Shown one piece after another: positions 6,994 to 41,662 of a stretch of DNA of 64,000 bases. Within the stretch, counting starts at the first letter, position 1. Each line of letters begins with the position of its first letter. Origin of the DNA: an uncultured Thermodesulfobacteriota bacterium (GTDB taxonomy: Bacteria; Desulfobacterota; WTBG01; CAIYCZ01); the NCBI GenBank assembly GCA_964594075.1, contig CAZQKW010000004.1, forward strand, positions 38,171 through 102,170, in the 5' to 3' direction. Both the position numbers and the translations under genes were made by a program. The notes below the pieces were generated by a model that made no database searches, had not been told where the DNA came from, and saw only the letters and a list, made by a program, of their open reading frames with translations.

Positions 6994-7353
6994 GGGGGCG
7001 AAAAGGGTTCGACGGGGGTTGTTGAAGCTTTAACTGCATACCGAGGTTCCTATCGCGGCTCGTAAAAAAGGTAGGATTAAACATAATCGCAGACGATTAT
7101 AATTACGCTCTGGCTGCCTAATCGCAGCCGGCGTTCCGCGTGTTTTCTCCTGCCGGACACAAAGGGGCGTCACTTCAGACAGGATAGCTCTTTTTCCTCT
7201 CTCAAGGGAATCTGAGCGAAACGTTTTGAGATAGCCTTTAAAGAATCCTGCTTCTGGGAGGCTTAAAAGGCGAACCCTAAAACAGAAGCTATGTATGTAG
7301 ATGTTAAAGTGGAAAGCTCTCGGACGGGGGTTCGATTCCCCCCGCCTCCACCA
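6994..7353 (+). ncRNA. ssrA: tmRNA (SsrA)
   Basis: The 5' end GGGGGCGAAAAGGGTTCGACGGGGGTTG and the 3' tRNA-like end GGACGGGGGTTCGATTCCCCCCGCCTCCACCA are tmRNA-like. An internal tag frame reads gca gac gat tat aat tac gct ctg gct gcc taa, giving ADDYNYALAA-stop. Confidence 0.85.
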
Positions 7354-21310: not shown

Positions 21311-21383
21311 TTGTTAATGGGTGCTCTGTATGAGCCAGCACTGGGGAAATTCTATCCAAACATCACAAACAAGGGGCATTTAA

Positions 21384-23132: not shown

Positions 23133-23154
23133 ATACCGCTCATGAGCGCGCGTT

Positions 23155-23224
23155 AGATTCCTCTGTCGCCACCGCTCCTCAGAATGACACCATGGTGGGA
23201 ATTCTTCGCTTCGTTCAGAATGAG
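23155..23224. repeat. REP-like element, two tandem copies
   Basis: AGATTCctctgtcgccaccgctcCTCAGAATGAC ... GGAATTCTTCGCTTCGTTCAGAATGAG. Confidence 0.55.
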
Positions 23225-23414
23225 ACTTTTTCACCAGCCGGTTAGAAGCACAAATGCCAGAAAAGAAAGGCAGGGTCAATAATGGCCCTGCCTTTATCAT
23301 TTGAATTTCGTTTACCAGTCCATGCCGATTTAGAACCTCTTGCAGCGGGTTGAATAGGCACGAAATGAAATATCAATCACAACTGCCGAAATGCCCCTTC
23401 GCTGTGCATGGGGA

Positions 23415-27072: not shown

Positions 27073-27663
27073 TTAAAATATACAGAAAATGGGATATAGG
27101 ACCACCGCAATAAGCGCAATGATAAAGTTTATATTCGCCAGGACTAAACTTATCAGCACAAGGTTGGGCGCCAGCCCGATGACATTCAGCGCCCCAACCG
27201 CAAATAGAAAATACAGGCCCAAGGCAAGGCATGCCGTCGCCACGCTTACCAGATCGCTGCAGATGCTGTCCGATGCCAGCAATTCCAGTTTCTCATCCGT
27301 GCTGATGTCAAGTTTTGCAATGTCAACAATGTTTTTTACGGTTTCCGAAACACGCTGCGGCAGCAAGCCTGAATTGTTTAGAAGATAGTTAAGGTAAAAT
27401 TCATTTTCCGGTTTTTTTATCTCCTCAAAAGCTGCATCAAGATATGAGAGATACTGCTCCTTGATCGCGGCACGCTGGTCTTGTGTCAGAGCCGTTTCGC
27501 CGTTATTAAACGCCTTTAAAGTTTCGTTGGTCTTCTGCACTTCAAGAATTTTGGCGATAGCGTTGCCGACGGGTGTTTGCGGTGTTTTGGCTAATGCCGT
27601 TGTTCCCACTGCCGCAAGCAAAAACATGACTGCTAATAGCAATGAAAAATATTTCTTATTCAT
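27073..27663 (-). CDS. hypothetical exported/membrane protein
   Basis: Signal peptide, strong Shine-Dalgarno GAGGAGG, and a C-terminal pair of TM helices. No family recognised. Confidence 0.45.
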   Translation of the reverse strand: MNKKYFSLLLAVMFLLAAVGTTALAKTPQTPVGNAIAKILEVQKTNETLKAFNNGETALTQDQRAAIKEQYLSYLDAAFEEIKKPENEFYLNYLLNNSGLLPQRVSETVKNIVDIAKLDISTDEKLELLASDSICSDLVSVATACLALGLYFLFAVGALNVIGLAPNLVLISLVLANINFIIALIAVVLYPIFCIF

Positions 27664-27740: not shown

Positions 27741-28226
27741 TTACTGGGTTGCAGAACACCCCAGCACATCGGTAACAAATGCGATAAGATTTTCAAATAC
27801 GCATATCGTATCGCCTTGCTCACATCCCTGAATTGCCTGAATCAAATCAAGAATTGCCTGAAAAATGCAGAGGAAGCCCGAAGGATCGCCCTCCTGTTGC
27901 GCCTTAAGTATCAATGTTCCGTTTTTTGAAATCGTTGCCAGTGTATCTTCACCATTGACTGAAAACAACAGGGTGTTTTTCTCGGCTGCTGTCTCATTGA
28001 TTGCCACAATGAGCGGCGCCCGTCCGGGTACTGAAATGACCATGCCCTTGTAAATGCCATCTGCGCGCTCAAAGACAACCACATCAAAATCTATATGCGC
28101 TCTCTTTAAAACATACTTTATCAGCGCATAATTGTTGATACTCTTGCCTGCAGCCGCTGCATCAGCAAGCGAAATGCCGCAGATGATACACACCATGAGT
28201 CCTATTACTGCAATTCGTTTTTTCAT
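27741..28226 (-). CDS. hypothetical exported protein
   Basis: Signal peptide MKKRIAVIGLMVCIICGISLADA and a strong Shine-Dalgarno AAGGAGGG. Confidence 0.45.
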   Translation of the reverse strand: MKKRIAVIGLMVCIICGISLADAAAAGKSINNYALIKYVLKRAHIDFDVVVFERADGIYKGMVISVPGRAPLIVAINETAAEKNTLLFSVNGEDTLATISKNGTLILKAQQEGDPSGFLCIFQAILDLIQAIQGCEQGDTICVFENLIAFVTDVLGCSATQ

Positions 28227-28327
28227 ACGTGCCCTCCTTAAAAACAGTTTTTAAAAATAGATAAATGCCTAACCTATTGAATGACCTGTCGGTTGCAGCA
28301 TTACGCGTGTTAACCGGGTGTCCCCTT

Positions 28328-28393
28328 GTCATTCTGAACGTCGCGAAGAATCTCAACACCTTTGCCATAGATTCTTCAGCCGCTACCGCTCAC
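28328..28393. repeat. REP-like element, inverted pair
   Basis: GTCATTCTGAACGTCGCGAAGAATCT ... AGATTCTTCAGCCGCTACCGCTCAC. Confidence 0.55.
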
Positions 28394-28430
28394 ACTGTGT
28401 TACACGGCGAACTGTGCGGCTTCGTCTCGT

Positions 28431-31121
28431 TTAATGTATCCGTATCTTTGAGCCAACTTTCAGGACTGATTCCTCATATAAGCCGTTCAGTTTTCTCAAG
28501 GTATTAACATCAACATTATATTTTCTGGATAGCGACATCAGGGTATCGCCCTGCGCAACACTATGATATTGAGGCGCCCGCGCCTTCGGCGCTGCTGCTT
28601 TAGCAATTTGTTTAATGTTCTCTTTTTTTGCCGGCGCGGGTTTTCTTACTATCTTGGGGGCCGGCGGCTTTACCGTCTTCTTCGTATCCGGCTCTACTGC
28701 CACGGGCTTTTCACCTTCCTGTTTCTCAGTCGGTTTAACCTCTTGAGCCGGTGTTTTTTCCGCTGTAACATTTTTTTCTGGCGCAGATGGGGCGATTTCC
28801 GTTGCTGCTGTCTCTTTTTTCTCTGTTTCAGATTCTGTTCCGGTTGCTTCTTTTTTCTGCTCAGTTTCTGGCTGGGGGGGAGTGTCCATCACCGGCGCTA
28901 TCTGCGCAGTCGGTTCCGGCGCACCTTCTGCCTTTGTTTCCGGCGCTGGCGCAGAAAGTATATTTGACGAAGAGCCGGTTTCGGCAACGGGCTCGCTGCC
29001 TGCGGGCGCATCAGCCTGAAGCGTATTTGCAGCAGCCTTTAATTCCTCTCCAGATGGCGCGTTCGCACCTGCCTGCCCAGCCTCTGGCAACGGCGCCGGT
29101 TTCTGCATTGCCGCAGGTCCCTCAGACACTTGGTTTGTAACTTCCGGCGCACCTGTTTCGCTCTTCGCTGTTTCCTGCTTCTCTTCTGGTTTGGCTGCAG
29201 CAGCACCAGGTTCGGTCAGCGTTTCTGCTGCGGGCTGCACAGCAGGAACAGCATCCTGAGGTGCAGGAGCTGCCTTTGCTGCCGTCGCCTGTTCTCCTGG
29301 TTGAGCCGGTTCAGCGGGTTTATCAGCGGGAGAGCTTTTGGATTCTTGCTGCACAGAACCCTGCGCCGGCTGCGCCTGTTCGGTTATAGGCGCCGGTTGC
29401 GGCGCGTCACTATGAGCCGGTGCTGCTTCACCGGCTGCACTGGGCGTATTAGCGTCTGCCGCCTGCACGGCAGGGGAAGCAGTTTCCGGAGGCTTTTCTG
29501 CTGTTTCTTGCTTTATCACAGCCTCGCCGGGAACTTCCTGCGCTGGTGCGGGCGCTGCCGCGTGCGTATTCTCCGGTGCGGGTGCTTCGGTTTTAACTGC
29601 GGCGACCAATTCGCTGCCGGTTGCGATTTTATCCGCTGCCGGGGAAGGTGCCGGCGGCCCTTCTGCTGCTGGTTGAACTGGAGGCGGTGAAACCGGAATC
29701 GGCGGCTCTTGTACCGCTTGCGCCGGAGTAGCGTCCGCTGCAGATGGTTTGGTCTCCGCCTTTTCTGCCGCCGGGGCGGCAGTTGCAATCCGGGCAGGTT
29801 GCTGGTTCTTTTCCGTACTGACGGCCACCGGTGCATGAGCGCGCGGTTGCACATCAGACTTTGATTTCAGAACAGGTTTTTTTAGGGGTTCAGTCTTTTT
29901 AGCGGTTACGGCGGACGCAACTTTTTTTACTGGAGGAGAAACTTCAGGTTTAAGAGTTACCCGCGTTTTTTCCTGCATCGCTGGTTTCTCTGTCTTATCC
30001 TCAGCAATACTTTGCACTTTAACCTTGGGCGGTTCCTTGATAACCGTCACCGGCTCCGGTGTCTGCTGTTTTGGCGGCGGCAATTCCTCAAGGTTAAAAT
30101 CTTCGGCTTTGACGATCTCAGCCTGCGGCTTATCGGTCAAAAAGTCTAATTTTGAAGACCCGCTGGCACCGGTTCTGGATTTTTTTAAGTTTTCGTTTGC
30201 TATAGTGTAAAAAGAGGGCTTCAGTTTTATTGCTTTTTCAAACGCCTGGTTCGCCCTCTCATAATCGCCTTTCATCAACAGCACACATCCCAGGTTATTA
30301 TAGGCAGTTGCCTCGTCGCTCACTTTCTTAAAAGTCTCCAGCGCTTCCTGATACCTGCCGGACAGTCCCAACGCAAGTCCCATGTTATTGTAAACCTTGT
30401 TCGGCACCGATCGGAAACCCATCGCCGTGTCAAACGCTTTTATGGCGCTGTCATAATTGCCGGAAAATAAATATGACAGCCCGAGATTGTTATACAGCAG
30501 CGCATTGTCCTGCTTGAGTGCGATTGCCTTCTGATAGGCGGCTATTGCCCGCGGGTAGTCCTTGCGCTTATCGTAAATAATCCCCAGACAGTTATGGCTC
30601 TTCCACAGGTTCTGATTCAGCTCCAGGGCTTTAATGAAATACCGCTCTGCCTCAGCAATCTTTTGCTGCTGAAAGAGCGCCAGCCCCATGCCTTCGTGTG
30701 CCAGGGCGTTTTGCGGCTCTTTTCTCATGACCTCCTGAAACTCCAGCATCGCATCGCTGAACATTTTGTTTAACAAAAACAGCAGGCCAATTTTATATCT
30801 GATTCGCAGGTTTTCCGGTTCAAGCCGCACTGATTTATCATACTGGAGAAACGCCTGTTGCAGGTTGCCGCTGTTGAAATAGTCGTCCCCTGACCGCTCA
30901 TACTCGGCAGCCGTCATTTCAGGGGGTTCTTTGAGGGGAACATCTCGTTGTGCGGGATTGGTGGCTTGGCGGGGCAAATTTTTTACCGGATATTTGTTGG
31001 CAAAGGGGTCTTTCAGGGTGTCCTTCCCGGCAATGGTGCTATTCTGCGAACAGCCGGATAAAAAAAAGATGCTAACCGCAAGAGCTAAGAAAGTTAGCAA
31101 GACCCCCTTTGATAGCACCAT
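28431..31121 (-). CDS. TPR-repeat lipoprotein with ~550-aa Pro/Ala/Glu-rich low-complexity region and C-terminal LysM domain (TadD-like / FimV-like)
   Basis: Lipobox FLSGC. N-terminal TPR repeats (AxxYYxxG, LGxxYxxxxxYxxA). C-terminal LysM YHSVAQGDTLMSLSRKYNVDVNTLRKLNG. Last gene of the tad locus. Confidence 0.8.
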   Translation of the reverse strand: MVLSKGVLLTFLALAVSIFFLSGCSQNSTIAGKDTLKDPFANKYPVKNLPRQATNPAQRDVPLKEPPEMTAAEYERSGDDYFNSGNLQQAFLQYDKSVRLEPENLRIRYKIGLLFLLNKMFSDAMLEFQEVMRKEPQNALAHEGMGLALFQQQKIAEAERYFIKALELNQNLWKSHNCLGIIYDKRKDYPRAIAAYQKAIALKQDNALLYNNLGLSYLFSGNYDSAIKAFDTAMGFRSVPNKVYNNMGLALGLSGRYQEALETFKKVSDEATAYNNLGCVLLMKGDYERANQAFEKAIKLKPSFYTIANENLKKSRTGASGSSKLDFLTDKPQAEIVKAEDFNLEELPPPKQQTPEPVTVIKEPPKVKVQSIAEDKTEKPAMQEKTRVTLKPEVSPPVKKVASAVTAKKTEPLKKPVLKSKSDVQPRAHAPVAVSTEKNQQPARIATAAPAAEKAETKPSAADATPAQAVQEPPIPVSPPPVQPAAEGPPAPSPAADKIATGSELVAAVKTEAPAPENTHAAAPAPAQEVPGEAVIKQETAEKPPETASPAVQAADANTPSAAGEAAPAHSDAPQPAPITEQAQPAQGSVQQESKSSPADKPAEPAQPGEQATAAKAAPAPQDAVPAVQPAAETLTEPGAAAAKPEEKQETAKSETGAPEVTNQVSEGPAAMQKPAPLPEAGQAGANAPSGEELKAAANTLQADAPAGSEPVAETGSSSNILSAPAPETKAEGAPEPTAQIAPVMDTPPQPETEQKKEATGTESETEKKETAATEIAPSAPEKNVTAEKTPAQEVKPTEKQEGEKPVAVEPDTKKTVKPPAPKIVRKPAPAKKENIKQIAKAAAPKARAPQYHSVAQGDTLMSLSRKYNVDVNTLRKLNGLYEESVLKVGSKIRIH

Positions 31122-31158: not shown

Positions 31159-32106
31159 TTATGGTTTTATAAGTGTATGAAATATGCGAATGGCTGCCGG
31201 CCCCATTAATATAACAAAGAGCGCAGGGAAAATGCAAAAAATAAGCGGCACCATTAACTTGACCGGCAGTTTTGCAGCAATTTCTTCAGCTTTCATATAC
31301 CTCTTAGTCCTGAAGGTGTCAGAATAAGTGCGCAACGCCTGCGCTATGCTGGTGCCGAATTTATCAGTCTGTATGAGCAAGGTGGCAAAATTTTTAATGT
31401 CCTCTATGTCAATACGCAGACCTAAATTGCGTAGCGCATCCGGCCGCGATTTTCCCGCTCGCAATTCTAAATTATACAGTTTAAGCTCATCGCTCAACGG
31501 CGGACTCGTCAATTTTATTTCATCCGCTACCCGGTTCATCGCCGCATCCAGCCCCATGCCCGCTTCAACGCAGACCACCAAAATATCCAGCGCATCAGGT
31601 ATTCCCCGTGATATTTTTTCTTTTCGGATGTTGGTTTTTATCTGCAACAAAAGATCAGGCAAATAAAATCCGGCAACCGCAAGAACGACGCAGATTATCA
31701 TCGTAATATTTGGTTGAACAATTTTAAAAACAGTTACCCGAAGAAGAAAAAATACTACCGGCAATAATAAGGAAAGGAAAAACTTTGCCCCCCAATAAAC
31801 GGAAATCAAATCTTCATTATTTAATCCTGCCCGTAAAAAATTAAGTTTTATTCGCGAATAATCTTCAGACCTTTCATTAACAAATAATTTACCCAGCGGT
31901 TTCAGCCAGGCCGCAAATGAAAGGAAGGACATATCCTTTCTGCTTCGCACACTCTCTTTTAAATCTTCAAACGTTCCTACATATTCCTCAAATTGTACTT
32001 TTTTAATTAACTTTTTCTTAGCCTGAACAAAATTTAAATACTGCAGGGTGCCAAAAATAATTAAAAAGATGAAAATAAATGTTATGGCTGAAATAATAAG
32101 CAGCAT
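31159..32106 (-). CDS. tadC: Flp pilus assembly inner-membrane protein TadC (T2SS F-domain)
   Basis: GspF-like domain with GMGLDAAMNRVADE. Confidence 0.85.
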   Translation of the reverse strand: MLLIISAITFIFIFLIIFGTLQYLNFVQAKKKLIKKVQFEEYVGTFEDLKESVRSRKDMSFLSFAAWLKPLGKLFVNERSEDYSRIKLNFLRAGLNNEDLISVYWGAKFFLSLLLPVVFFLLRVTVFKIVQPNITMIICVVLAVAGFYLPDLLLQIKTNIRKEKISRGIPDALDILVVCVEAGMGLDAAMNRVADEIKLTSPPLSDELKLYNLELRAGKSRPDALRNLGLRIDIEDIKNFATLLIQTDKFGTSIAQALRTYSDTFRTKRYMKAEEIAAKLPVKLMVPLIFCIFPALFVILMGPAAIRIFHTLIKP

Positions 32107-32127: not shown

Positions 32128-33105
32128 TTAAATTCTTATTGAAACCATGCGGTTCATTATATAAATACCCACCGCTATTAACACCAGTGCCCCGACGATC
32201 ATTTTTTTGCCGATGGGATCTTGTATGAGAGAATTTACATAATCAGGGTTTAAGATCCGAATGACGAAAAAGATCAAAAATGGAAGAACCGTTAGTATAA
32301 TAGCAGATATTTTTCCTTCCGCAGATAAAACCCGCAGTTTGTCATTAAATTTAAATCTTTCGCGAATAATATGCGCTATATTGTCAATAATCTCGGCAAG
32401 ATTCCCGCCGGTCTCACGCTGAAGAATGACCGAAACTACAAAAAATTTAACTTCAGCGCAGTCAACACGATAAGCAAGATTTCTCAATGCATCAGCAACC
32501 GGGACGCCAAAATTGATTTCATCCAGCACTTGGGCAAATTCGGGGCCAAGCGGTTCGCCAAAATTATCAACCACCACCTTCATGCCGCTGGTGAACGCAT
32601 GCCCCGCACGCAGCGATCGGGCAATCAGCTCAAGCGCCTCCGGCAATTGTTTTTCAAACTCCTGCAATCGGTTTCTTTTTTTAAGGGAAAGATACAAAAA
32701 AGGAATTATGGCAAACAAAAAAGCTGTAATATAGGATATTCCCAATACTCTGACCGGCAAAATGACACTGCCCATTAAAAAGCCAACCTGCATTAACAAC
32801 AACGAGAGCAAGATAAACACACCGACTGGATACTGCGCATTCGCTTGCTGGATTAATCTATCAAGCCGTTCAATACCGGGAATTTTAAAAAAAATTTTAT
32901 TTAAGAACGGAACATTGCTAAGAAGTCTTTTGCGTAAGATATCCGGCGTATCAATGGAATACTGGGAGAAAGAGAATTTTTTCAGGCGATTCTGAATTTG
33001 TCTGCTCTTAAGCCCACTAATAGACCTGATGCCATATAACACCAGCTCAATAAAAATGATGGTTATTATTGCAAAGAAAATAATTAATCTAAACGGAAGA
33101 TCCAT
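32128..33105 (-). CDS. tadB: Flp pilus assembly inner-membrane protein TadB (T2SS F-domain)
   Basis: GspF-like domain with LRAGHAFTSGMKVV...GVPVADALRNL. Confidence 0.85.
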   Translation of the reverse strand: MDLPFRLIIFFAIITIIFIELVLYGIRSISGLKSRQIQNRLKKFSFSQYSIDTPDILRKRLLSNVPFLNKIFFKIPGIERLDRLIQQANAQYPVGVFILLSLLLMQVGFLMGSVILPVRVLGISYITAFLFAIIPFLYLSLKKRNRLQEFEKQLPEALELIARSLRAGHAFTSGMKVVVDNFGEPLGPEFAQVLDEINFGVPVADALRNLAYRVDCAEVKFFVVSVILQRETGGNLAEIIDNIAHIIRERFKFNDKLRVLSAEGKISAIILTVLPFLIFFVIRILNPDYVNSLIQDPIGKKMIVGALVLIAVGIYIMNRMVSIRI

Positions 33106-33131: not shown

Positions 33132-34472
33132 CTATACTTCCAGCACCGTAGTCGGCTCAAACATTTCCCTGGGCAGCGTTATGCCGAATGCCTTGAATTT
33201 CTCTATGAATTTTGGCCGCACCCCGTGAAATACGAATTTTCCGCGCACCCTGCCTTCCGAATCAATGGTCGTCCGCTGGAATGAATAAATTTCCTGCATG
33301 GTTATAATGTCGCCCTCCATGCCGGTGATTTCCTGAAAGCTAATCAGTTTTCGGGTCCCGTCCTGCAAACGGGCAATGTGGATAATAACATTGAGCGCTG
33401 AACTGATGTAGCGGCGCAGGTGGTCAATGGGAATGTCAACATTCGCCATGGCAACCATGGATTCAATGCGCATTAAGGCGTCCCGCGGCGAATTGGCGTG
33501 AATGGTGGTCAACGAGCCTTCGTGGCCGGTGTTCATTGCCTGCAGCATATCAAATGCTTCCCTGCCTCTGACCTCGCCGACAATAATGCGATCGGGCCGC
33601 ATGCGCAGGCTGTTGCGCACCAGATCCCGCTGAGTCACTTCACCCTTGCCTTCAATATTAGGCGGCCTGGTTTCCAGCCGCACCACGTGTTCCTGTTTTA
33701 ATTGCAGTTCTGATGCATCTTCTATGGTGATAATCCGCTCGTCATGGGGAATAAAACGCGATAGAACATTCAGCGTGGTGGTCTTGCCACTGCCGGTGCC
33801 ACCGGAAATCACAATATTCAATTTTGCTTTGACAATGGCCTTAAGTATCTCGCCAATTTCCGGCGTCAAAGTCTGAAGATTAATAAGGTCTTCAAGTTCC
33901 AGCGGGTCCCGGGCAAAGCGCCTGATGGACAAAATGGGACCGTCAATCGCCAGCGGCGGTATGATGGCATTAACGCGTGAACCGTCCGGCAAGCGCGCGT
34001 CAACCATCGGCGATGATTCATCAATACGGCGCCCCACCTGAGAGACAATTTTATCAATAATCCTCATTAAATGTGCGTCGTCTTTAAACCGTGCGTCGGT
34101 GCTTTCCAGCTTGCCAAACCGCTCCACATAGATGTTTTTGTAGGTATTGACCAGAATGTCTGATACCGTCGGGTCCTGCATGAACGGCTCCAGAGGACCA
34201 TACCCCATCACTTCGTCCTGAATTTCAGTAACCAGCAATTCACGCTCAAGTGAATTGAGGGGATAGCTGCTGCGGTCTTCATTAAGGATGCGTTCTACCA
34301 GCGCCCGAATTTGAGATTTGAGCATATCCGCTTCAAGAGTCTCGATTACCGTGAGGTCTATGATATCCAACAGACGGTCATGTATCTGAGTCTTAAGCTC
34401 AAAATACTCCTCAGGTATTTCTCGGCGCGCTGCACGCTTGTCTCTCGCTGCTACCTGTGCGTATGGTTGCAT
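33132..34472 (-). CDS. cpaF: Tad pilus ATPase CpaF/TadA (T2SS/T4SS E-family)
   Basis: Walker [10 protein letters not shown] and [16 protein letters not shown]. Start set at 34472 (MQPYAQ) on the strength of an AGGAG Shine-Dalgarno. Confidence 0.9.
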
Positions 34473-34504
34473 AAAAACTCCTATGCTATTATGTATGTAT
34501 AATG

Positions 34505-35677
34505 TTATGTTGCCGCTTCCCTGCTGTTGAACCACCTGAACAGCTTACTCCGCGATTCTTTCTCAGTTTCCTTTTTTCCTATGATGTTTTCAGCAAGGTC
34601 TTTAAGGTTTTTGGCAATGGGCGAATTAGAGGCAACGCTTGACAGCGGAAGCCCTTGGTTAATAGCGTTCATGGTTGCCCGGTAGTCATTGGGTATCGTC
34701 CAGTAGATATCTTTCTTTATGCCTTCTGCTGCATCTTTCAAAGTAAGATCAGACTGTTTGATATACCGATTGATGATAACCCGAATCCGTTCCGGTTGTG
34801 GATAGCCTATCTCTTTTAAGGAGGAGAGAAGTTTTGAGGTGTTTGACAGGCACGGCAGGCTTAACACCGAAATAATAAAAATCAGATCAGACATTTCAAA
34901 TGCCTTTACCGTGGTGTCGTCTATGGAGGTGCCGGCGTCAATCACTATGAAGTCAAACATTCTCTTTAACAGCGAAAGAATGCGTTCCATTATCTTGGGC
35001 GTGGTTTTTTCCCCTTCCTTCCAATAACTTTCGGAAGGCAACACATAGACCCCGGTGTGATGTTTGGACAGGATGTCCATCAAAAAGGTGGGGTCAAGGC
35101 GGTTTATATGTTTGGTAATTTCGCTCAGGTTATATTTAGGCTTGATTTCCAGAAACAGCGGAATTTCGCCATATAGCCGGTTCATGTCCACCAGCACCAC
35201 CGAGTTTCTGCGTTTCTCCTCGGCAAGTTCCACTGCCAGATTTACCGCAAGCGTGGTGGTTCCCACGCCCCCTTTGCTGCCCAGCAAGGTCAGTATTCTG
35301 CCGAATTTGACCACATCCTTGGGTTTGGCATCTTCCGCCTTCTTTTTAAATGCATCAAATGCCTGTTTTATCTGGCTGGGGTCAATCGGCTGCGCCAGAA
35401 ATTCCTTTGCGCCGATTTTTATGGCGCGCATGAGAATTTCCGGGGCAGGGTTCTTTGCTGTTAGGAATACATCCCCCACCAGGTTCACGTTTTTCAGGGA
35501 TTCTATAAGCTGAAAATCGTTCTCCACCTGGTCACCCAGTTCATAAATCAGCAGGTCCGCTCTTCGCGTGTCATCAGGTCTGAGAATGGCAACGCCCTGA
35601 AATGAGGTAATAACTGCCTCCAGCTCGTTTCTGACCGACGAATTCTTGATTTCAAATTTGACTAAAATATCATTCAT
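34505..35677 (-). CDS. cpaE: CpaE/TadZ: receiver-like N-domain + ParA/MinD-type ATPase
   Basis: Deviant Walker [17 protein letters not shown]. Confidence 0.85.
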
Positions 35678-36986: not shown

Positions 36987-37529
36987 TTATTCTTCCGGCT
37001 GACATTCTGTTCTCATTTGTGTTACCGCAGAAAGTGTTATGGGCCCTGACAAAGAACCGCCAAAGAATGCTCCCAGAATATTTGGCAGCAGAAGAAAATT
37101 ATAATCAAATGTCACGGTCACTCTTCTATAATACTGACCATCTGCAGTTGGCACCATACCCGTAGTGGTAACCGACGGAGTTTTGGAGCCGGAAAAGTTA
37201 ATTAAATAATTTGCGCAGTAGCTGCGCACTACTGTTTCGACATCCGATGGGGAAATCATACGACAAGTACCCACTCCCGCTACACCATTAGGGGGATGGG
37301 TATATAGTATCGCTGTTCTGGCGCCTTCACGGCTGGCATTGGTAATGACCGCTTTGTTATAAAACAGTATCCCAAACTCAATAATGCCGAAAATAAAAAG
37401 CAACAACAGCGGCAGCACAATCGCAAACTCAACCGCTGATGCGCCCTTCTGGCATTTTAAACCTGTCTTATCTTTCACGTCATACCTCACGTATTCAAAA
37501 TTATTGTTATTGCTGGCCATAGATGCCAA
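36987..37529 (-). CDS. TadE/TadF-like pseudopilin
   Basis: QKGASAVEFAIVLPLLLLFIFGIIEFG TadE motif. Confidence 0.75.
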   Translation of the reverse strand: MASMASNNNNFEYVRYDVKDKTGLKCQKGASAVEFAIVLPLLLLFIFGIIEFGILFYNKAVITNASREGARTAILYTHPPNGVAGVGTCRMISPSDVETVVRSYCANYLINFSGSKTPSVTTTGMVPTADGQYYRRVTVTFDYNFLLLPNILGAFFGGSLSGPITLSAVTQMRTECQPEE

Positions 37530-37806
37530 ATCCCAATGTCCCCATGCGTTGAGCGCCGCTCGTCTGGCCTGCTTTTCCCGTAAAGCTTTTCACATATTGC
37601 CCCAACGCCGCTTCTGCAGCCTGACCGTGAAGCCCTTTGACCGGCTCAAGATTTTTGGAAGCATCGGGGTTGAATGTCTGCCCCTGTTTTTGTGCATAGT
37701 ATGCAGTGCCCCAGTTATCCGCCACCTTTGACGGGGTTGCACACGCGCCGCACACCAATGCTGCTATGGTTAACAAAATCACCGACAAAACAATGCGTGA
37801 TGTATT
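37507..37806 (-). CDS. small exported protein in tad locus
   Basis: Signal peptide MNTSRIVLSVILLTIAALVCGACA. No recognisable family. Confidence 0.4.
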   Translation of the reverse strand, partial: NTSRIVLSVILLTIAALVCGACATPSKVADNWGTAYYAQKQGQTFNPDASKNLEPVKGLHGQAAEAALGQYVKSFTGKAGQTSGAQRMGTLGFGIYGQQ

Positions 37807-37890
37807 CATGGCTGCCACTCCTTATATTTTTATTATTATATTTATTATTGAGGTAATTGCAAAAGTATTCAAAAATGGGATTACAGAGTT

Positions 37891-38058: not shown

Positions 38059-39486
38059 TTAGTTCATCGGCACAGCGTGCCCGAACTCACCGTCAAGCCT
38101 GCCTTTGGTATTTGAAGAAGGCGGGCAGGCTCTTCCTTCCAGCATCCCCAGCACATAGAATTCAAAATCATCCGGCTCCACAAAAAAATCTGTCGGCAAC
38201 GGCTGTTTGGCAGTGTCAAGTGGCTTTACCAGGCGCGGGGTAACAATAATTACCAACTCAGTTTCATTGCGTCTGAAATTTTGGCTGCGGAACAGTTGCC
38301 CGAGAATCGGTATGTCTCCCAACGCAGGGTATTTTGCAGCGTTTTCCCGCATATTTTCAGACAAAAGTCCGGCTATCGCAAAGCTCTGACCGTCGGCAAG
38401 TTCAACATTTGTTGAAGCGCTGCGGGTAGTTAGCCCTGGAACCACAAACCCCTGAATTGCCACTGCAGTTGAGTAATCCAGCTCAGACACCGACGGGGTT
38501 ACTTTAATATTTATTTTATTTTCGCTTAATACCGTCGGCGTGAACGCAAGCTCTACACCGTATTTCTTATATTCAATACCCACGGTTCCCAGTCCCTGTG
38601 GAATCGGCACCGGGTATTCGCCGCCGGCTAAAAACTGGGCATTTTGCCCGCTCAAAGCGATGAGCGTCGGCTCTGCCAGAACCTTTATCATTCCGTCGTC
38701 CCGCAAGGCATCAATGAGGGTAGTCCAAGAGGAACTGCCCCGGTTGAAACGGAATAACAGATTCGATGCAGGGGACGCAAAAAAACTGAGTAAACCGCTT
38801 CTCGCATCTGGCAGATTCCCTTCGCCTTCCTGAGCTAAGGTGCCGATCTGATTAAGCAATCCGATACCAAACTCTTCCTTATTGCGGTAGATGATATTGA
38901 AACCAAGTTCACGGGTGAGCCGTTTTGACATTTCCGCGACCCGCACCTCAAGCATAACCTCCTGCACACCCGAAACTTCCACCTGATTTCTGATCTTTCC
39001 TTTTGGGGCATACGCCTCGGCAACCGATAAAATCTGCGCAAGATTTGCCGCGCTGGAAACTCTGCCGGCAAGTATGATGGAATCATCGCCGGAGATGATC
39101 CGCAGCTCCTGTTCCTCGGGAAGTACCTGATTGAGCTTTTGTTTTAGCTTGGTGATGTCATAGCCCACGTGCAGGTCATAAATTTCGGTAATTTTGTTCC
39201 CTTCCCAGATGGTGAGATTACTGGTGCCGGGCGATTTGCCAGTGAGGTAAATCTCGCGCGGCGAAATCATCAAAAAGTCGGCGATTTTAGGTTCTGCAAT
39301 GGAAATACGGCTTATCGCCCGCGTGCTGCGAATGGTTACCGAACTGCCCACTGCCACTTCCAGCGTTTTATGCTGACGCGTGTCAACGGTGATTGCAGCG
39401 TCTAACAGCGCGGGCATACACAAGGCAAGTATAATCAAAACACAAAGCGTCCATTTCTTTATGGCAGATACAGGTATTGTGCTCAT
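38059..39486 (-). CDS. cpaC: Tad secretin CpaC/RcpA (BON + secretin domains)
   Basis: Signal peptide and C-terminal secretin signature GQSFAIAGLL...PILGQLFRS...ELVIIVTPRLV. Confidence 0.9.
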   Translation of the reverse strand: MSTIPVSAIKKWTLCVLIILALCMPALLDAAITVDTRQHKTLEVAVGSSVTIRSTRAISRISIAEPKIADFLMISPREIYLTGKSPGTSNLTIWEGNKITEIYDLHVGYDITKLKQKLNQVLPEEQELRIISGDDSIILAGRVSSAANLAQILSVAEAYAPKGKIRNQVEVSGVQEVMLEVRVAEMSKRLTRELGFNIIYRNKEEFGIGLLNQIGTLAQEGEGNLPDARSGLLSFFASPASNLLFRFNRGSSSWTTLIDALRDDGMIKVLAEPTLIALSGQNAQFLAGGEYPVPIPQGLGTVGIEYKKYGVELAFTPTVLSENKINIKVTPSVSELDYSTAVAIQGFVVPGLTTRSASTNVELADGQSFAIAGLLSENMRENAAKYPALGDIPILGQLFRSQNFRRNETELVIIVTPRLVKPLDTAKQPLPTDFFVEPDDFEFYVLGMLEGRACPPSSNTKGRLDGEFGHAVPMN

Positions 39487-39503: not shown

Positions 39504-40346
39504 TTAGAATCCCTGAGTGGTTACTTTGGTGCCTCTTATTTCTTTGACGGTTATTGGCTCGCGGCGGCTGAGTACCTGAGCCTGTTTTTCCTGACCTTTT
39601 ATTTTTACGGTTTTACCGGTATATGATTCAAGAGTTTCCGGAACCGTAGCTCCGTCGGTCAAGACAATCTCCGTATCCATGGCATTGCGCAACGCCAACT
39701 GCAGTTTGCCCTCGGTGGCGGCAAGGGCAAGTTTCTCGCCTTCTTCCGGGGTTACCTCAAGGGTAAAGACATCCACCGGTGAGGGCTCGCCTTTTTCATT
39801 CTTTTGAATTTCAGCACCGGTTGCCAGCACCAGGATATTTTCAAGAATTACTTTGGTAACCTGCTTCTTGTCGCGCGGATCTTCTATGCTGACCAGCACA
39901 TCAACGATATTTCCGGGCCTGATGAGACCAGCAAGCCCGATAACTTTATCACCCTTGACCGCGATTGCCCGTTTGCCGGTTTTTACCACCGCCGCCATGC
40001 CGCCGGCAGTAACGGTGGCAGGGGCAAGCTTGGTCTCCAGCACCGGTTCGTTGGCTTTTAACGGCTGAATGGTAACTCTGCCTTCAAGTTGATTGAGGTC
40101 GCTGAAATAACCGGGAGGAAGCGTTTCCTTGAGGTAGGGCACAAGGCGCAACTGCTCTTTAGTTATCTTGGTGCCCCAGGGCAAATCAATTGCTGCCGAA
40201 GCGATCATGACCGTTTCTTTCTCCGGGGCAACCTTGGGAGGCCCGATTTGCCGTTTTACCCAGTTGTAGGTAAAAACGCCTCCGATGAAGGCTATAAACA
40301 CAGCGAGAATGATTGGTAAAATTGCTTTCCAGATTCCCATAATCAA
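39504..40346 (-). CDS. cpaB: Flp pilus assembly protein CpaB/RcpC (SAF domain)
   Basis: N-terminal TM helix, SAF-like domain, 280 aa. Confidence 0.85.
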   Translation of the reverse strand: MIMGIWKAILPIILAVFIAFIGGVFTYNWVKRQIGPPKVAPEKETVMIASAAIDLPWGTKITKEQLRLVPYLKETLPPGYFSDLNQLEGRVTIQPLKANEPVLETKLAPATVTAGGMAAVVKTGKRAIAVKGDKVIGLAGLIRPGNIVDVLVSIEDPRDKKQVTKVILENILVLATGAEIQKNEKGEPSPVDVFTLEVTPEEGEKLALAATEGKLQLALRNAMDTEIVLTDGATVPETLESYTGKTVKIKGQEKQAQVLSRREPITVKEIRGTKVTTQGF

Positions 40347-40448
40347 CCCCCTTTGCTAAAGTTGATAATGTTACAAAACGCAACTCTACAAAACGCAACC
40401 CTAATTTATGTTATGTTAAAAACATATCTGTTAAACGCTTCGCCCCCT

Positions 40449-40474
40449 AGATTCTTCGCTGCGCTCAGAATGAC
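40449..40474. repeat. REP-like 26-bp element
   Basis: AGATTCTTCGCTGCGCTCAGAATGAC. Confidence 0.65.
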
Positions 40475-40495
40475 AGCGAGAGGCATGCTTCACCA

Positions 40496-41053
40496 TTAAA
40501 TGGGCAACTTATACTGTGCCGCTTTAAGCCCCATCGTTAGCAACGCGCCCAGCGCAATGGCAACCCCGTAACACAGCTTGGGCGGCTTTTCGTCTTCCGC
40601 TGCCGGTATCGGAATGAAGTTGCCGGTCCATACCAGTGTTTTTACGGTTGCGGTAATCCGTTTAAGCACCTTTTTACTTGCTTGAAAACGCACCAGTATA
40701 ATGAAGACGGCATAGATGCCACCGATAATTCCAGTAAACAAGAAGGCGTTGAGGACATTTTTGGGTCCGAGCACCGCGCCTACTGCTCCCATGAGCTTGA
40801 CATCTCCAGCACCCATAGCTCCAAACACATAAAAAATACCCAAGGTTATCAAACCCGTTAGCAAACCGACGACGCTAAAAAACAAACCATGTATTCCGTT
40901 ATAAAAAAAATTGTAGGTGAATGCAATAATAATGGTAGGATATGTAATAAGGTTGGGTATTTTTCTAATAAAGAGATCTATGATTGCGGCAACTATTAAG
41001 ATACCGGCCAAAGCATACATTAAATAACAATCCATTGCAGACTGTTCAGCCAT
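40496..41053 (-). CDS. tadV: prepilin peptidase TadV/CpaA (A24 family)
   Basis: IIDLFIRKIPN Asp motif, GAMGAGDVKLMG motif, multi-TM. Confidence 0.8.
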   Translation of the reverse strand: MAEQSAMDCYLMYALAGILIVAAIIDLFIRKIPNLITYPTIIIAFTYNFFYNGIHGLFFSVVGLLTGLITLGIFYVFGAMGAGDVKLMGAVGAVLGPKNVLNAFLFTGIIGGIYAVFIILVRFQASKKVLKRITATVKTLVWTGNFIPIPAAEDEKPPKLCYGVAIALGALLTMGLKAAQYKLPI

Positions 41054-41239
41054 TTTACCCCCGCTTTTGCCTTTTGTGCTAATCGGCCGGATTTGATATT
41101 TTGTTGATTATCTTGGATATTATGTTAATTAAATTAAAACTCTGCTTGAACAATTGAAAAGTATTAAAACTTAACCTGTCTTCGAGTATCATAATTTTTT
41201 AAAAAATACAGGAAAAGTTTTCGCAGAATTTTTTTGTGC

Positions 41240-41413
41240 TTAACTCCCGGCGTTCATTACCTCTGTTGCCGTAGAATCAAATAAGGTGCTCAAGTTTTGT
41301 CCAAGGAGAGTAACAGCTGCAAGAATAATGACCGCAATAAGCGCTAACATAAGACCATACTCTACTGCAGTCGCTCCATCTTCGGCACGATAGAATTTTT
41401 TGAGGCTATCCAT
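41240..41413 (-). CDS. flp: Flp-family type IVb pilin (57 aa), not in ORF track
   Basis: Hand translation: MDSLKKFYRAEDGATAVEYGLMLALIAVIILAAVTLLGQNLSTLFDSTATEVMNAGS. It carries the Flp motif G/ATAVEYGLM. Confidence 0.85.
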   Translation of the reverse strand: MDSLKKFYRAEDGATAVEYGLMLALIAVIILAAVTLLGQNLSTLFDSTATEVMNAGS

Positions 41414-41427
41414 ATGGATTCCTTTTT

Positions 41428-41458
41428 ATATAAACTTCCCCTATCACTTTTAATGATA
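41428..41458 (-). terminator. inter-pilin hairpin (putative attenuator/terminator after flp2)
   Basis: CTTCCCCTATCA-CTTTTA-TGATAGGGGAAG perfect 12-bp stem, followed on the minus strand by a U-rich run. Confidence 0.4.
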
Positions 41459-41488
41459 GGGGAAGTTTTGTGTATGGGTTAATTGCTA

Positions 41489-41662
41489 TTACTGACCTGC
41501 CTGTCCTACCTCGGTTGCAACTGAATCAAATTTTGTGCTTAAGTTCTGACCGAGCAAGGTGACAGCTGCGATGATCACGATCGCAATTAAGGCTACCATA
41601 AGCCCATATTCAACTGCGGTAGCTCCTTCTTCATCACGAAAGAATTTTTTTAAGCGTTCCAT
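41489..41662 (-). CDS. flp: Flp-family type IVb pilin (57 aa), not in ORF track
   Basis: Hand translation: MERLKKFFRDEEGATAVEYGLMVALIAIVIIAAVTLLGQNLSTKFDSVATEVGQAGQ. Shine-Dalgarno GGGAGAA. First gene of the tad operon. Confidence 0.85.
   Translation of the reverse strand: MERLKKFFRDEEGATAVEYGLMVALIAIVIIAAVTLLGQNLSTKFDSVATEVGQAGQ

What the first reader, a model, noticed from the sequence alone, without database searches (positions are those of the whole stretch)
28431..31121. TadD-like TPR lipoprotein fused to ~550-aa Pro/Ala/Glu-rich disordered region and C-terminal LysM
Tad loci usually end with a short TPR lipoprotein (TadD pilotin). Here the TPR module (lipobox FLSGC) is followed by a very long PAPA/E/K-rich low-complexity spacer and a C-terminal peptidoglycan-binding LysM domain. 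This resembles the FimV/HubP architecture in inverted order, and could tether the secretin or pilus machine to peptidoglycan across the periplasm.
Basis: partly seen in the sequence, partly recalled or inferred. Interest (0 to 1): 0.55.

Follow-up and report, generated by a model that had tools for sequence, protein, structure and literature searches.

The report
Tad pilotin fused to cell-wall anchor
The last gene of this pilus (Tad) operon encodes an outer-membrane lipoprotein that probably helps assemble the pilus pore and tethers it to the cell wall through a C-terminal LysM domain; such fusions turn out to be common in sulfate-reducing bacteria, and only the ~530-residue floppy linker is unusual here.

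Summary
ORF 28431-31121 (-) encodes an 896-aa lipoprotein (lipobox LSGC, Cys24). It has seven TPR repeats plus a cap helix (aa 71-319), a ~530-aa Ala/Pro/Glu/Lys-rich disordered linker, and a C-terminal LysM domain (aa 851-896). It lies 37 bp after tadC in a complete Tad locus.

The fusion itself is not unusual. The TPR module belongs to a large Desulfobacterota family of lipoproteins that is almost always encoded directly after tadC. About one third of members carry a C-terminal LysM, SPOR or SH3b cell-wall-binding domain, and these tails have been gained or swapped several times. All 42 secretins in these loci end in a conserved tip motif, [LF][DE]GxFGHxxP, which parallels the RcpA tip that docks into P. 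aeruginosa TadD.

Best reading: a TadD-type pilotin that also tethers the secretin/outer-membrane complex to peptidoglycan. That role is played by separate proteins elsewhere (CpaD, TsaP, PilQ AMIN domains).

The FimV/HubP analogy fails because there is no transmembrane segment and the whole protein is periplasmic.

What is rare is the linker. Only one small clade has it. Its length is conserved, and dN/dS is about 0.4-0.5 against 0.05 for the TPR module. This is a new variant of a known kind and is of moderate interest.

The parts
28431..31121 (-). Whole gene: TadD-like TPR lipoprotein, disordered linker and LysM domain (896 aa plus stop codon)
   Evidence: ORF list; Pfam TPR and LysM; full-length AF2 model; orthologues P0002-P0004 at 78/63/50% identity with the same architecture
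31050..31121 (-). Signal peptide with lipobox L-S-G-C (aa 1-24; Cys24 is the predicted lipidated residue)
   Evidence: Read directly from the sequence. It is the only hydrophobic segment. G23 and C24 are conserved in at least 90% of 125 family members.
30918..31049 (-). Unstructured N-terminal tether between the lipid anchor and the TPR module (aa 25-68)
   Evidence: pLDDT <50
30165..30917 (-). TPR module: 7 TPR repeats plus a capping helix (aa 69-319). The conserved Asn residues N212/N246/N276 sit at TPR position 6.
30030..30164 (-). Conserved post-TPR segment at the start of the linker (aa 320-364: ...SSKLDFLTDKPQAEIVKAEDFNLEELPPPK...)
   Evidence: Conserved among P0001-P0004. dN/dS is 0.13 for aa 315-364, against 0.4-0.5 for the rest of the linker. 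No structure is predicted.
28572..30029 (-). Main body of the disordered linker (aa 365-850): Lys-rich basic ends (aa 365-464 and 815-850) flanking an acidic Ala/Pro/Glu-rich core
   Evidence: Composition and charge windows; pLDDT <50 with no secondary structure; no tandem repeat; dN/dS 0.38-0.54 with 1 and 17 gap codons against L003 and L001
28434..28571 (-). C-terminal LysM domain (aa 851-896)
   Evidence: Pfam PF01476, 38.7 bits against a cut-off of 20.9; beta-alpha-alpha-beta model at pLDDT ~90
38059..39486 (-). Tad secretin (RcpA/CpaC type), the presumed partner of the TPR module
   Evidence: Pfam Secretin and T2SS-T3SS_pil_N. The best PDB sequence match is P. aeruginosa RcpA, 8odn_A, E 1.3e-63.
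38062..38097 (-). Secretin C-terminal tip LDGEFGHAVPMN, carrying the conserved motif [LF][DE]GxFGHxxP; a candidate pilotin-docking peptide
   Evidence: The motif is present in 42 of 42 secretins of these loci, after a variable spacer and 3-9 residues from the C-terminus. In P. aeruginosa the last 4-5 residues of RcpA bind the TadD groove (PMC10499894).
31159..37529 (-). tadC (31159-32106), tadB (32128-33105), tadA/cpaF (33132-34535), tadZ/cpaE (34505-35677), tadG (35697-36950), tadE (36987-37529)
   Evidence: Pfam T2SSF x2, T2SSE, AAA_31/ParA, Tad/Tad_C, TadE
37507..37818 (-). Small (103-aa) putative lipoprotein directly after the secretin gene, in the RcpB/CpaD position. No known domain.
   Evidence: ORF and sequence; no Pfam or NCBIfam hit; homologues in 30 of the related loci
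39504..41662 (-). rcpC/cpaB (39504-40346), prepilin peptidase cpaA (40496-41053) and two Flp pilin genes (41240-41413, 41489-41662)
   Evidence: Pfam RcpC/SAF and Peptidase_A24; 57-aa ORFs with the Flp motif GATAVEYGLM

Best explanation
The gene encodes the pilotin-type accessory lipoprotein of this Tad pilus machine, with a peptidoglycan anchor built in.

Shown:
- It is a lipoprotein with a 7-repeat TPR module, a ~530-aa disordered linker and a LysM domain.
- It is encoded directly after tadC.
- Its TPR module belongs to a large family that is tied to Tad loci.
- The C-terminal module is interchangeable with SPOR or SH3b in orthologues.

Inferred:
- After lipidation at Cys24, the protein is anchored in the inner leaflet of the outer membrane.
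- The concave face of its TPR superhelix is lined by conserved position-6 residues: R76 and K110 in the N-terminal repeats and an Asn ladder (N212, N246, N276) in the C-terminal repeats. This face captures the conserved C-terminal tip of the secretin (...LDGEFGHAVPMN), as P. aeruginosa TadD captures the last residues of RcpA. That would promote secretin assembly and form a ring around the secretin.
- From each copy, the linker pays out the LysM domain, which binds the glycan strands of the cell's own peptidoglycan non-covalently.
- The outer-membrane part of the machine is thereby coupled to the wall. This is the job done by a separate OmpA-like lipoprotein (CpaD) in Caulobacter, and by PilQ AMIN domains and TsaP in type IVa pili.

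The very long linker is a derived expansion in this small clade. It most likely acts as a slack, flexible tether whose length and composition, rather than its sequence, are maintained.
For: Anatomy.

Operon position:
- 37-bp gap after tadC, with no promoter-like or terminator-like site on the - strand in the gap.
- Same position in L001-L003.
- 74 of 83 related loci have tadC upstream on the same strand, and in 63 the TPR module starts within 520 nt of the tadC stop.
- In L002 the gene is the last of the operon; the next gene is convergent.

Family:
- At least 349 proteins match at E<=1e-20; the best 120 are 46-59% identical over more than 83% of the TPR module, and many are named 'Flp pilus assembly protein TadD' by JGI.
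- The lipobox Cys is conserved in at least 90% of members.

Modular cell-wall tails:
- Of 125 members, 26 carry LysM, 9 SPOR and 6 SH3b.
- Of 83 genome loci, 4 carry LysM, 15 SPOR and 1 SH3b.
- The tail types are patchy on the TPR tree, with about 5, 5 and 2 state changes.

Partner peptide:
- [LF][DE]GxFGHxxP sits at the extreme C-terminus of 42 of 42 secretins, after a variable spacer.
- The secretin's closest solved relative is RcpA from the RcpA-TadD complex 8odn.

No other cell-wall-binding domain was found in the locus: the secretin has no AMIN domain and there is no OmpA-like gene.

Precedents: CpaD (PMC13170226); PilQ AMIN domains (PMC5285504); TsaP and OutB, together with the remark that peptidoglycan-binding parts are the variable part of such machines (PMC9239104).
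Against: - No direct test of TPR-secretin binding or of LysM-peptidoglycan binding was possible.
- Sequence homology to an experimentally characterised TadD was not demonstrated. No TadD-specific model matched, the PilW and Tgl NCBIfam models score far below their cut-offs, and the fold searches are dominated by generic TPR proteins.
- The module has 7 repeats, against 5 in P. aeruginosa TadD.
- In Caulobacter the TadD orthologue CpaO is dispensable and is not part of the machine, so a TPR lipoprotein in a tad locus is not automatically a pilotin.
- Half of the family has no tail at all, so wall binding is not essential to the family's core role.
- A linker of 60-160 aa suffices in all other members, so tethering does not explain 536 aa.
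- Co-transcription with tadC is inferred, not measured.
Confidence: 0.6

Rival explanations
1. The cell-wall-binding tail is mainly a positioning device. It binds particular peptidoglycan (for example at the division septum or new pole) so that the pilotin, and with it the secretin, is installed at defined sites. Mechanical anchoring is secondary. The long linker lets the domain search a large volume.
For: Many orthologues carry SPOR, a domain known from the literature (my own knowledge, not tested here) to prefer denuded glycan strands at division septa. In P. aeruginosa the peptidoglycan-binding AMIN domains of PilQ recruit the type IVa machinery to future division sites before secretin oligomerisation (PMC5285504). 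Half of the family works without any tail, which fits a modulatory rather than a structural role.
Against: LysM and SH3b have no known septal preference, yet they occupy the same position as SPOR. No localisation data exist. This reading is not exclusive of the anchoring reading.
Confidence: 0.25
2. The protein is a surface-exposed lipoprotein. The Pro/Ala-rich region is a stalk that presents LysM outwards to bind GlcNAc polymers (chitin, or the walls of other cells), making it an adhesin that accompanies the adhesive Tad pilus.
For: LysM also binds chitin (abstract of PMC4004799). Long Pro/Ala-rich spacers are typical of surface proteins (my own knowledge). Tad systems mediate adhesion.
Against: Orthologues carry SPOR or SH3b in the same place, and those domains recognise features of the cell's own wall. 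There is no sign of a surface-export system. The conserved secretin tip motif points to a periplasmic partner.
Confidence: 0.05
3. It is a general envelope TPR-LysM protein with no specific role in the Tad machine, and its position after tadC is incidental.
For: The TPR module is close to the TPR consensus and matches many unrelated TPR proteins. No curated family model claims it.
Against: Adjacency to tadC is conserved across orders of Desulfobacterota in 63 of 74 informative loci. The secretin tip motif is conserved alongside it.
Confidence: 0.03
4. It is a FimV/HubP-like polar hub with the domain order inverted.
For: The same three ingredients are present: LysM, a long acidic low-complexity region and TPR.
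Against: There is no transmembrane segment, so all parts lie in the periplasm. FimV/HubP function depends on a cytoplasmic TPR/acidic region and a periplasmic LysM (my own knowledge). No homology beyond the generic domains was seen.
Confidence: 0.02

Closest known systems
TadD, the pilotin of the Tad secretin RcpA (P. aeruginosa, A. actinomycetemcomitans; PMC10499894)
   Same: Both are outer-membrane lipoproteins and all-TPR, PilF-like crescents. Both genes lie directly after tadC. Both partner secretins have an unstructured C-terminal tail ending in a conserved tip. The window's secretin is most similar to RcpA of the RcpA-TadD complex, 8odn.
   Different: The window protein has 7 TPR repeats against 5, and 896 aa against ~250. 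P. aeruginosa TadD has no linker and no peptidoglycan-binding domain (no mention of peptidoglycan in that paper). The secretin tip motif is FGHxxP here, while RcpA ends in ...L414-S415-D416. Direct sequence homology was not demonstrated here.
CpaD of Caulobacter crescentus (outer-membrane lipoprotein with an OmpA-like fold, proposed to anchor the CpaC secretin to peptidoglycan; PMC13170226)
   Same: Both are outer-membrane lipoproteins of a Tad machine that combine secretin contact with a cell-wall-binding module. The proposed function is the same.
   Different: The fold is unrelated (OmpA-like against TPR plus LysM), the gene position differs (after the secretin gene), and CpaD has no long linker. 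In Caulobacter the TPR protein CpaO is separate and dispensable.
PilF/PilW/Tgl pilotins, together with TsaP and the PilQ AMIN domains of type IVa pili
   Different: In type IVa systems, the pilotin and the wall-binding parts are separate proteins. The NCBIfam PilW and Tgl models score 79 and 56 bits against cut-offs of 154 and 225, so this is not a member of those families.
FimV/HubP
   Same: Domain content: LysM, an acidic low-complexity region and TPR.
   Different: FimV/HubP span the inner membrane, with LysM in the periplasm and TPR in the cytoplasm. The window protein has no transmembrane helix and is a lipoprotein.
Short-linker TPR-LysM, TPR-SPOR and TPR-SH3b lipoproteins of Desulfobacterota Tad loci (e.g. 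P0213/L018, P0177, P0245; the Pseudodesulfovibrio and Desulfovibrio loci L062-L082)
   Same: They are true family members: 46-59% identity over the TPR module, the same gene position, a lipobox, and a C-terminal cell-wall-binding module.
   Different: Their tails are 58-170 aa in total, against 571-585 aa in the window clade. I found no publication describing them.

Membership tests
TadD (Tad secretin pilotin) | Outer-membrane lipoprotein: signal peptide ending in a lipobox Cys | tested here: met
   L-S-G-C with Cys24. It is the only hydrophobic segment. The Cys is conserved in at least 90% of the family.
TadD (Tad secretin pilotin) | All-helical TPR crescent with a PilF-like fold | tested here: met
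TadD (Tad secretin pilotin) | Encoded in the tad operon directly after tadC | tested here: met
   37-bp gap. The position is conserved in 63 of 74 informative loci.
TadD (Tad secretin pilotin) | Significant sequence similarity to an experimentally characterised TadD | tested here: inconclusive
   No TadD-specific model appeared in Pfam or NCBIfam. TadD of 8odn was not among the listed PDB hits. Only JGI's automatic 'TadD' names support this.
TadD (Tad secretin pilotin) | Binds the C-terminal tip of the secretin in its groove and is needed for secretin assembly | not testable with these tools
   Indirect support only: the tip motif is conserved in 42 of 42 secretins, and conserved position-6 Asn, Lys and Arg residues line the groove by canonical TPR geometry (inference).
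PilW/PilF (TIGR02521) and Tgl (NF033762) type IVa pilotins | Score above the curated NCBIfam cut-off | tested here: not met
   PilW 79.2 bits against 154; Tgl 56.4 bits against 225
LysM domain proteins (PF01476) | Pfam gathering score and a beta-alpha-alpha-beta fold | tested here: met
   38.7 bits against 20.9, aa 853-895. The model shows E852-854, H861-867, H872-879 and E892-894 at pLDDT ~90.
LysM domain proteins (PF01476) | Binds peptidoglycan | not testable with these tools
   Inferred from the domain family and from its replacement by SPOR or SH3b in orthologues
FimV/HubP | Single transmembrane helix separating a periplasmic LysM from a cytoplasmic acidic/TPR region | tested here: not met
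   No hydrophobic segment after the signal peptide (maximum KD19 0.97)
CpaD-type OmpA-like Tad lipoprotein | OmpA-like peptidoglycan-binding fold | tested here: not met
   No OmpA family hit in the target or in any gene of the locus

The most novel reading that the evidence does not exclude
The 536-aa linker is not slack rope but a functional periplasmic polymer. If the pilotin rings the secretin in 13-14 copies, as TadD does in P. aeruginosa, about 7,000 residues of charged disordered chain would surround the periplasmic face of each pore. That chain has basic ends and an acidic core. It could act as an entropic brush or spring that sets or buffers the local distance between the outer membrane and the wall. 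Alternatively, it could be a tether adapted to an unusually wide periplasm in this lineage. The conserved length, the near absence of indels and dN/dS below 1 would then reflect selection on polymer properties.
Probability: 0.12. Interest if true: 0.65.

Novelty: new variant of a known kind. Interest (0 to 1): 0.4.

Why it matters
How Tad secretins are fixed to the cell wall is only now being worked out. In Caulobacter the job was assigned to CpaD in 2026, while P. aeruginosa RcpA-TadD was solved without any wall-binding partner.

This family offers a natural experiment. The same TPR lipoprotein occurs bare, or with LysM, SPOR or SH3b, or next to a second TPR-LytR_C protein. The partner secretin always keeps one conserved tip motif. 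That makes two ideas testable by domain swaps and truncations in culturable Desulfovibrio or Desulfosarcina relatives:
- that the pilotin doubles as a peptidoglycan anchor or positioner;
- that wall attachment is the fast-evolving, modular part of such machines.

The window's clade adds an extreme case for studying what a very long disordered periplasmic tether does.

If the reading is wrong, the finding reduces to an ordinary TPR/LysM envelope protein.

Tried and rejected
- Sequence and fold searches of the TPR module against the PDB are dominated by designed consensus TPRs, OGT and SPINDLY. They cannot separate TadD, PilF and generic TPR proteins. TadD of 8odn never appeared in the listed rows.
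- In NCBIfam no model passes its cut-off. The best partial matches are MamA, PilW, NlpI and Tgl.
- The full-length homology search was swamped by generic TPR proteins. Only the search restricted to the TPR module revealed the family. P0001-P0005 were not relisted there, for reasons I do not know.
The nearest relatives are uncultured Desulfobacterales. A literature search for GCA_900174595 found nothing.
- Long tblastn matches (1.5-3 kb) in many genome loci looked like further long-linker versions. They turned out to be a second, separate TPR gene downstream.
- The linker has no DNA tandem repeats, so it did not arise by recent repeat expansion.
- No intrinsic terminator was found after the gene. 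The 204-nt downstream spacer folds into hairpins with z = -2.0 but has no U-tract, which is inconclusive.
- Model coordinates are not exposed to scripts, so conserved residues were placed on the groove by canonical TPR numbering only.
- The exhaustive profile search mixes giant multi-TPR proteins with family members. Only single-stretch, N-terminally aligned hits were used.
- Literature searches for Tad/TadD combined with LysM, SPOR or peptidoglycan-binding found no description of these fusions. The library is incomplete, so this does not prove that none exists.
Full report

Yes. The window has an ATG-initiated ORF at 28431-31121 on the minus strand, encoding 896 aa.

- Signal peptide. The N-terminus is a signal peptide ending in L-S-G-C (Cys24). 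It is the only hydrophobic stretch in the protein: the Kyte-Doolittle 19-residue maximum is 2.28 at aa 6-24 and never exceeds 0.97 afterwards.
- TPR module. Pfam finds TPR repeats over aa ~70-305 (TPR_2 E 9e-37, TPR_1 E 8e-36). AlphaFold2 with a 66-sequence alignment gives a confident TPR superhelix (mean pLDDT 85.6, 232 residues >=90) of 15 helices, i.e. seven repeats plus a cap.
- LysM. Pfam finds a LysM domain at aa 853-895 (38.7 bits against a gathering score of 20.9).
- Full-length model. It shows aa 71-319 at pLDDT >90, aa ~327-840 at pLDDT <50 with no secondary structure, and aa 850-896 at pLDDT ~90 with a beta-alpha-alpha-beta LysM fold.
- Linker. Measured as aa 315-850, it is 536 aa: 21% Ala, 16% Pro, 11% Glu, 10% Lys, two aromatic residues, net charge -15. 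It has Lys-rich basic ends (aa 365-464 and 815-850, about +9 each) around an acidic core. It is not built from DNA tandem repeats.

**2. Surroundings**

The gene is the last recognisable member of a complete Tad/Flp locus on the minus strand. In order, the locus holds:

- two Flp pilin genes (41489-41662, 41240-41413)
- the prepilin peptidase (40496-41053)
- RcpC/CpaB (39504-40346)
- the secretin (38059-39486)
- a 103-aa putative lipoprotein (37507-37818)
- TadE, TadG, TadZ, TadA, TadB and TadC (31159-32106)
- the target, 37 bp downstream of the tadC stop codon, with AGGAA ahead of the ATG

The consensus scan finds no promoter-like or terminator-like site on that strand in the gap. Downstream there is a 204-nt spacer, followed by two small secreted or membrane proteins of unknown function. 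Co-transcription is therefore likely but has not been measured.

**3. Relatives**

A full-length search found only four clusters with the same long architecture: an exact match (cluster 1, which also holds an 898-aa member, P0121) and orthologues at 78, 63 and 50% identity, 823-900 aa. It also found a 533-aa protein whose TPR module is 51% identical but which ends in a SPOR domain instead of LysM. In three contigs carrying these genes, the gene again sits directly after tadC in an identically ordered Tad locus. In the SPOR case it is the last gene before a convergent DNA polymerase gene.

Searching with the TPR module alone changed the picture. At least 349 proteins match at E <= 1e-20. The best 120 are 46-59% identical over more than 83% of the module, are 282-482 aa long, and are often named 'Flp pilus assembly protein TadD' by JGI. 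Nearly all have a signal peptide ending in a Gly/Ala/Ser-Cys lipobox, and Gly23/Cys24 are conserved in at least 90% of members.

I cut each protein after the conserved end of the TPR module and classified the tails with HMMs built here. Of 125 members:

- 62 have essentially no tail
- 26 end in LysM
- 9 end in SPOR
- 6 end in a bacterial SH3 domain
- 22 have other or disordered tails (including MORN, an Ig-like domain and an unknown ~110-aa beta-rich domain)

A scan of one genome per species returned 80 further loci. All come from Desulfobacterota (Desulfobacterales, Desulfosarcina variabilis and D. widdelii, Syntrophorhabdus, Pseudodesulfovibrio, Desulfovibrio, Halodesulfovibrio) or from a few bins labelled otherwise. 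Across all 83 loci:

- 74 have tadC upstream on the same strand, and in 63 the TPR module begins within 520 nt of the tadC stop.
- 20 carry a wall-binding tail: 4 LysM, 15 SPOR (all the Desulfovibrionales) and 1 SH3b.

On a neighbour-joining tree of the TPR modules the tail types are scattered, with parsimony changes of about 5 for LysM, 5 for SPOR and 2 for SH3b. The tree has no support values. The window's clade nests inside a 20-member LysM clade whose other members have short linkers. So 'TPR lipoprotein plus cell-wall-binding tail' is a common, modular and repeatedly re-invented architecture of these Tad loci. The long linker is a derived expansion.

**4. How rare is the long linker?**

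Tails are 58-170 aa in nearly all tailed members. They are 571-585 aa only in the window's clade. The next longest are 386 aa (L005, SPOR), 234 aa (L059) and 214 aa (P0005).

An exhaustive profile search of 1.84 billion cluster representatives shows only two family-type hits above 600 aa. One is P0003, representing the window's clade. The other is P0306 (790 aa), whose extension consists of four PKD/Ig domains, not a disordered linker plus LysM.

Within the clade, the regions evolve differently:

| Region | Identity to P0002 / P0003 / P0004 | dN/dS vs L003 / L001 |
|---|---|---|
| TPR module | 96 / 93 / 81% | 0.065 / 0.045 |
| Linker (whole) | 69 / 47 / 35% | 0.49 / 0.375 |
| Linker, first 50 residues after the TPR module | not computed | 0.13 / 0.135 |
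| LysM | 89 / 78 / 65% | 0.46 / 0.25 |

The linker aligns with only 1 and 17 gapped codons out of 536 against L003 and L001. It is therefore maintained in length and composition under relaxed purifying selection, and it is not decaying sequence.

**5. The partner**

The secretin of the locus is most similar, among solved structures, to P. aeruginosa RcpA of the RcpA-TadD complex (8odn_A, E 1.3e-63).

[quoted passage not shown] It rings the secretin and binds the last four to five residues of RcpA in its positively charged groove. [quoted passage not shown]

In the present family, every one of 42 secretins that could be read to its end finishes with the same motif, [LF][DE]-G-x-F-G-H-x-x-P. The motif lies 3-9 residues from the C-terminus, after a spacer of variable length and sequence. 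In the window it reads ...RLDGEFGHAVPMN.

The invariant or near-invariant residues of the TPR family include Asn212, Asn246 and Asn276. By canonical TPR numbering (Gly at position 8) these occupy position 6 of helix A in repeats 5-7. Arg76 and Lys110 occupy the same position in repeats 1-2. Position 6 lines the concave face and forms the peptide-binding 'asparagine ladder' of the O-GlcNAc transferase TPR domain. That last point is my own knowledge; 1w3b is among the top hits.

This pattern is what a TadD-like docking of the secretin tip would predict, but the binding itself is inferred.

**6. Fold and family membership**

The NCBIfam models for PilW and Tgl score far below their cut-offs (79 against 154 bits; 56 against 225), and no TadD-specific model exists in the libraries searched. 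I therefore call the protein TadD-like by position, lipidation, fold and partner motif. I have not shown it to be homologous to characterised TadD.

**7. Mechanism**

The best-supported reading is a bifunctional protein. A lipid-anchored TPR pilotin docks the secretin tip, and its C-terminal LysM binds the cell's own peptidoglycan, so that the outer-membrane part of the Tad machine is coupled to the wall.

- The strongest argument for the second half is the interchangeability of three unrelated wall-binding folds (LysM, SPOR, SH3b) at the same position in orthologues.
- It is also supported by the absence of any other wall-binding domain in the locus. The secretin has only the N-terminal pilus-formation domain and the secretin domain, and there is no OmpA-like gene.
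- The principle is well established elsewhere: PilQ AMIN domains (PMC5285504), TsaP LysM and GspB/OutB (PMC9239104), and most recently the OmpA-like lipoprotein CpaD of the Caulobacter Tad machine (PMC13170226).
- The OutB paper notes that peptidoglycan-binding components are the less conserved, recently diversified parts of such machines. That is exactly the pattern seen here.

SPOR domains prefer septal peptidoglycan (my own knowledge), and AMIN domains pre-install type IVa machines at future poles.

Caution is warranted for two reasons. In Caulobacter the TadD orthologue CpaO is dispensable. And half of the present family has no tail.

**8. The linker**

Simple polymer scaling (Rg = 0.254 N^0.522 nm for disordered chains; my own knowledge, computed) gives an rms end-to-end distance of ~16 nm and a contour length of ~190 nm for 536 residues. 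The 60-160-residue linkers of other members give 5-9 nm.

The short linkers evidently suffice to reach the wall from the outer membrane, so tethering alone does not explain the expansion. Options that remain open:

- a slack tether with no cost
- adaptation to a wider envelope
- a polymer-brush or spring function, given 13-14 copies per secretin

None of these could be tested here.

**9. The FimV/HubP comparison**

This comparison fails on topology. FimV and HubP are inner-membrane proteins with a periplasmic LysM and a cytoplasmic TPR region. The window protein has no transmembrane helix and is wholly periplasmic.

**10. Side observation**

In loci whose TadD-like protein has no tail, 18 of about 55 encode a second TPR protein ending in a LytR_C domain, mostly immediately downstream, though a few lie up to ~1.3 kb downstream or upstream of the gene (Pfam E 1e-8 to 4e-28). 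None of the 20 loci with a LysM, SPOR or SH3b tail does (Fisher p = 0.002, not corrected for phylogeny). LytR_C is a cell-wall-associated domain whose direct binding to peptidoglycan has not been shown (PMC11832169). The pattern suggests alternative ways of adding an envelope-binding module.

**11. Verdict**

This is a new variant (extreme linker) within a widespread family of Tad pilotin-like lipoproteins with modular cell-wall anchors. As far as I could find, that family has not been described in the literature. It is a new variant of a known kind of system, not a new kind. Interest is moderate (0.4).

Noticed in passing
L026:8952-10574, L043:10300-11676, L012:9010-10284, L021:3447-4772, L025:8962-10365, L030:9079-10509, L038:8823-10487, L067:8993-10309: In Tad loci whose TadD-like protein has no tail, a second TPR protein (325-560 aa) ending in a LytR_C domain (PF13399) is encoded, mostly just downstream. 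It is present in 18 of ~55 such loci and in 0 of 20 loci with a LysM, SPOR or SH3b tail. This looks like mutual exclusion but is not corrected for phylogeny.
   Followed up: partly
window 37507-37818 (-): A 103-aa putative lipoprotein with no known domain lies directly after the secretin gene, in the RcpB/CpaD position. Homologues are present in 30 of the related loci, so it is probably a family-specific Tad component.
   Followed up: partly
window 38062-38097 (-) and the secretins of 41 related loci: The secretin C-terminal tip motif [LF][DE]GxFGHxxP is invariant in 42 of 42 secretins. It differs from the ...LSD tip of P. aeruginosa RcpA. I did not check whether it occurs in Tad secretins outside this TPR family.
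   Followed up: partly
window 27741-28226 (-) and 27073-27663 (-): Two small proteins of unknown function, each with a signal peptide, lie downstream of the target. The 196-aa one has a long hydrophobic C-terminal region. They are conserved only in the two closest relatives (L001, L003), not in the wider family.
   Followed up: partly
window 6994-7353 (+): A tmRNA gene (Rfam RF00023, 215 bits, full length).
   Followed up: no
window 18449-26021 and 45714-47105: Several large secreted repeat proteins flank the Tad locus: PKD (21384-23132, +), PPC/PKD-like (23415-26021, -), an RCC1-repeat protein (45714-47105, -) and a 953-aa protein with no clear domain (18449-21310, +). Similar PKD/NHL proteins lie near the locus in L001.
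   Followed up: no
P0306; P0162, P0175, P0181, P0220; P0140; P0231: Other C-terminal extensions occur in the same TPR family: four PKD/Ig domains (P0306, 790 aa), an unrecognised ~110-aa beta-rich domain (four proteins), MORN repeats (P0140) and an Ig-like segment (P0231). So the tail position accepts more than peptidoglycan binders.
   Followed up: partly
window 28227-28430 (-): The 204-nt spacer after the stop codon folds into two stable hairpins right after the stop (MFE -59.6 kcal/mol, z -2.0) without a U-tract. These could be a transcript-end or stabilising structure.
   Followed up: partly
L034, L037, L041: Three loci carrying typical Desulfobacterota-type Tad/TPR genes come from bins labelled Methanomassiliicoccales archaeon, Gammaproteobacteria and Nitrospiraceae. 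This probably reflects binning or labelling errors in the public records (the Nitrospirota ones may be genuine).
   Followed up: no
The closest homologues, P0001-P0005, were not relisted when the TPR module alone was used as the query, although they should score best. This is a quirk of the word-index candidate step, so counts from that tool are lower bounds.
   Followed up: no
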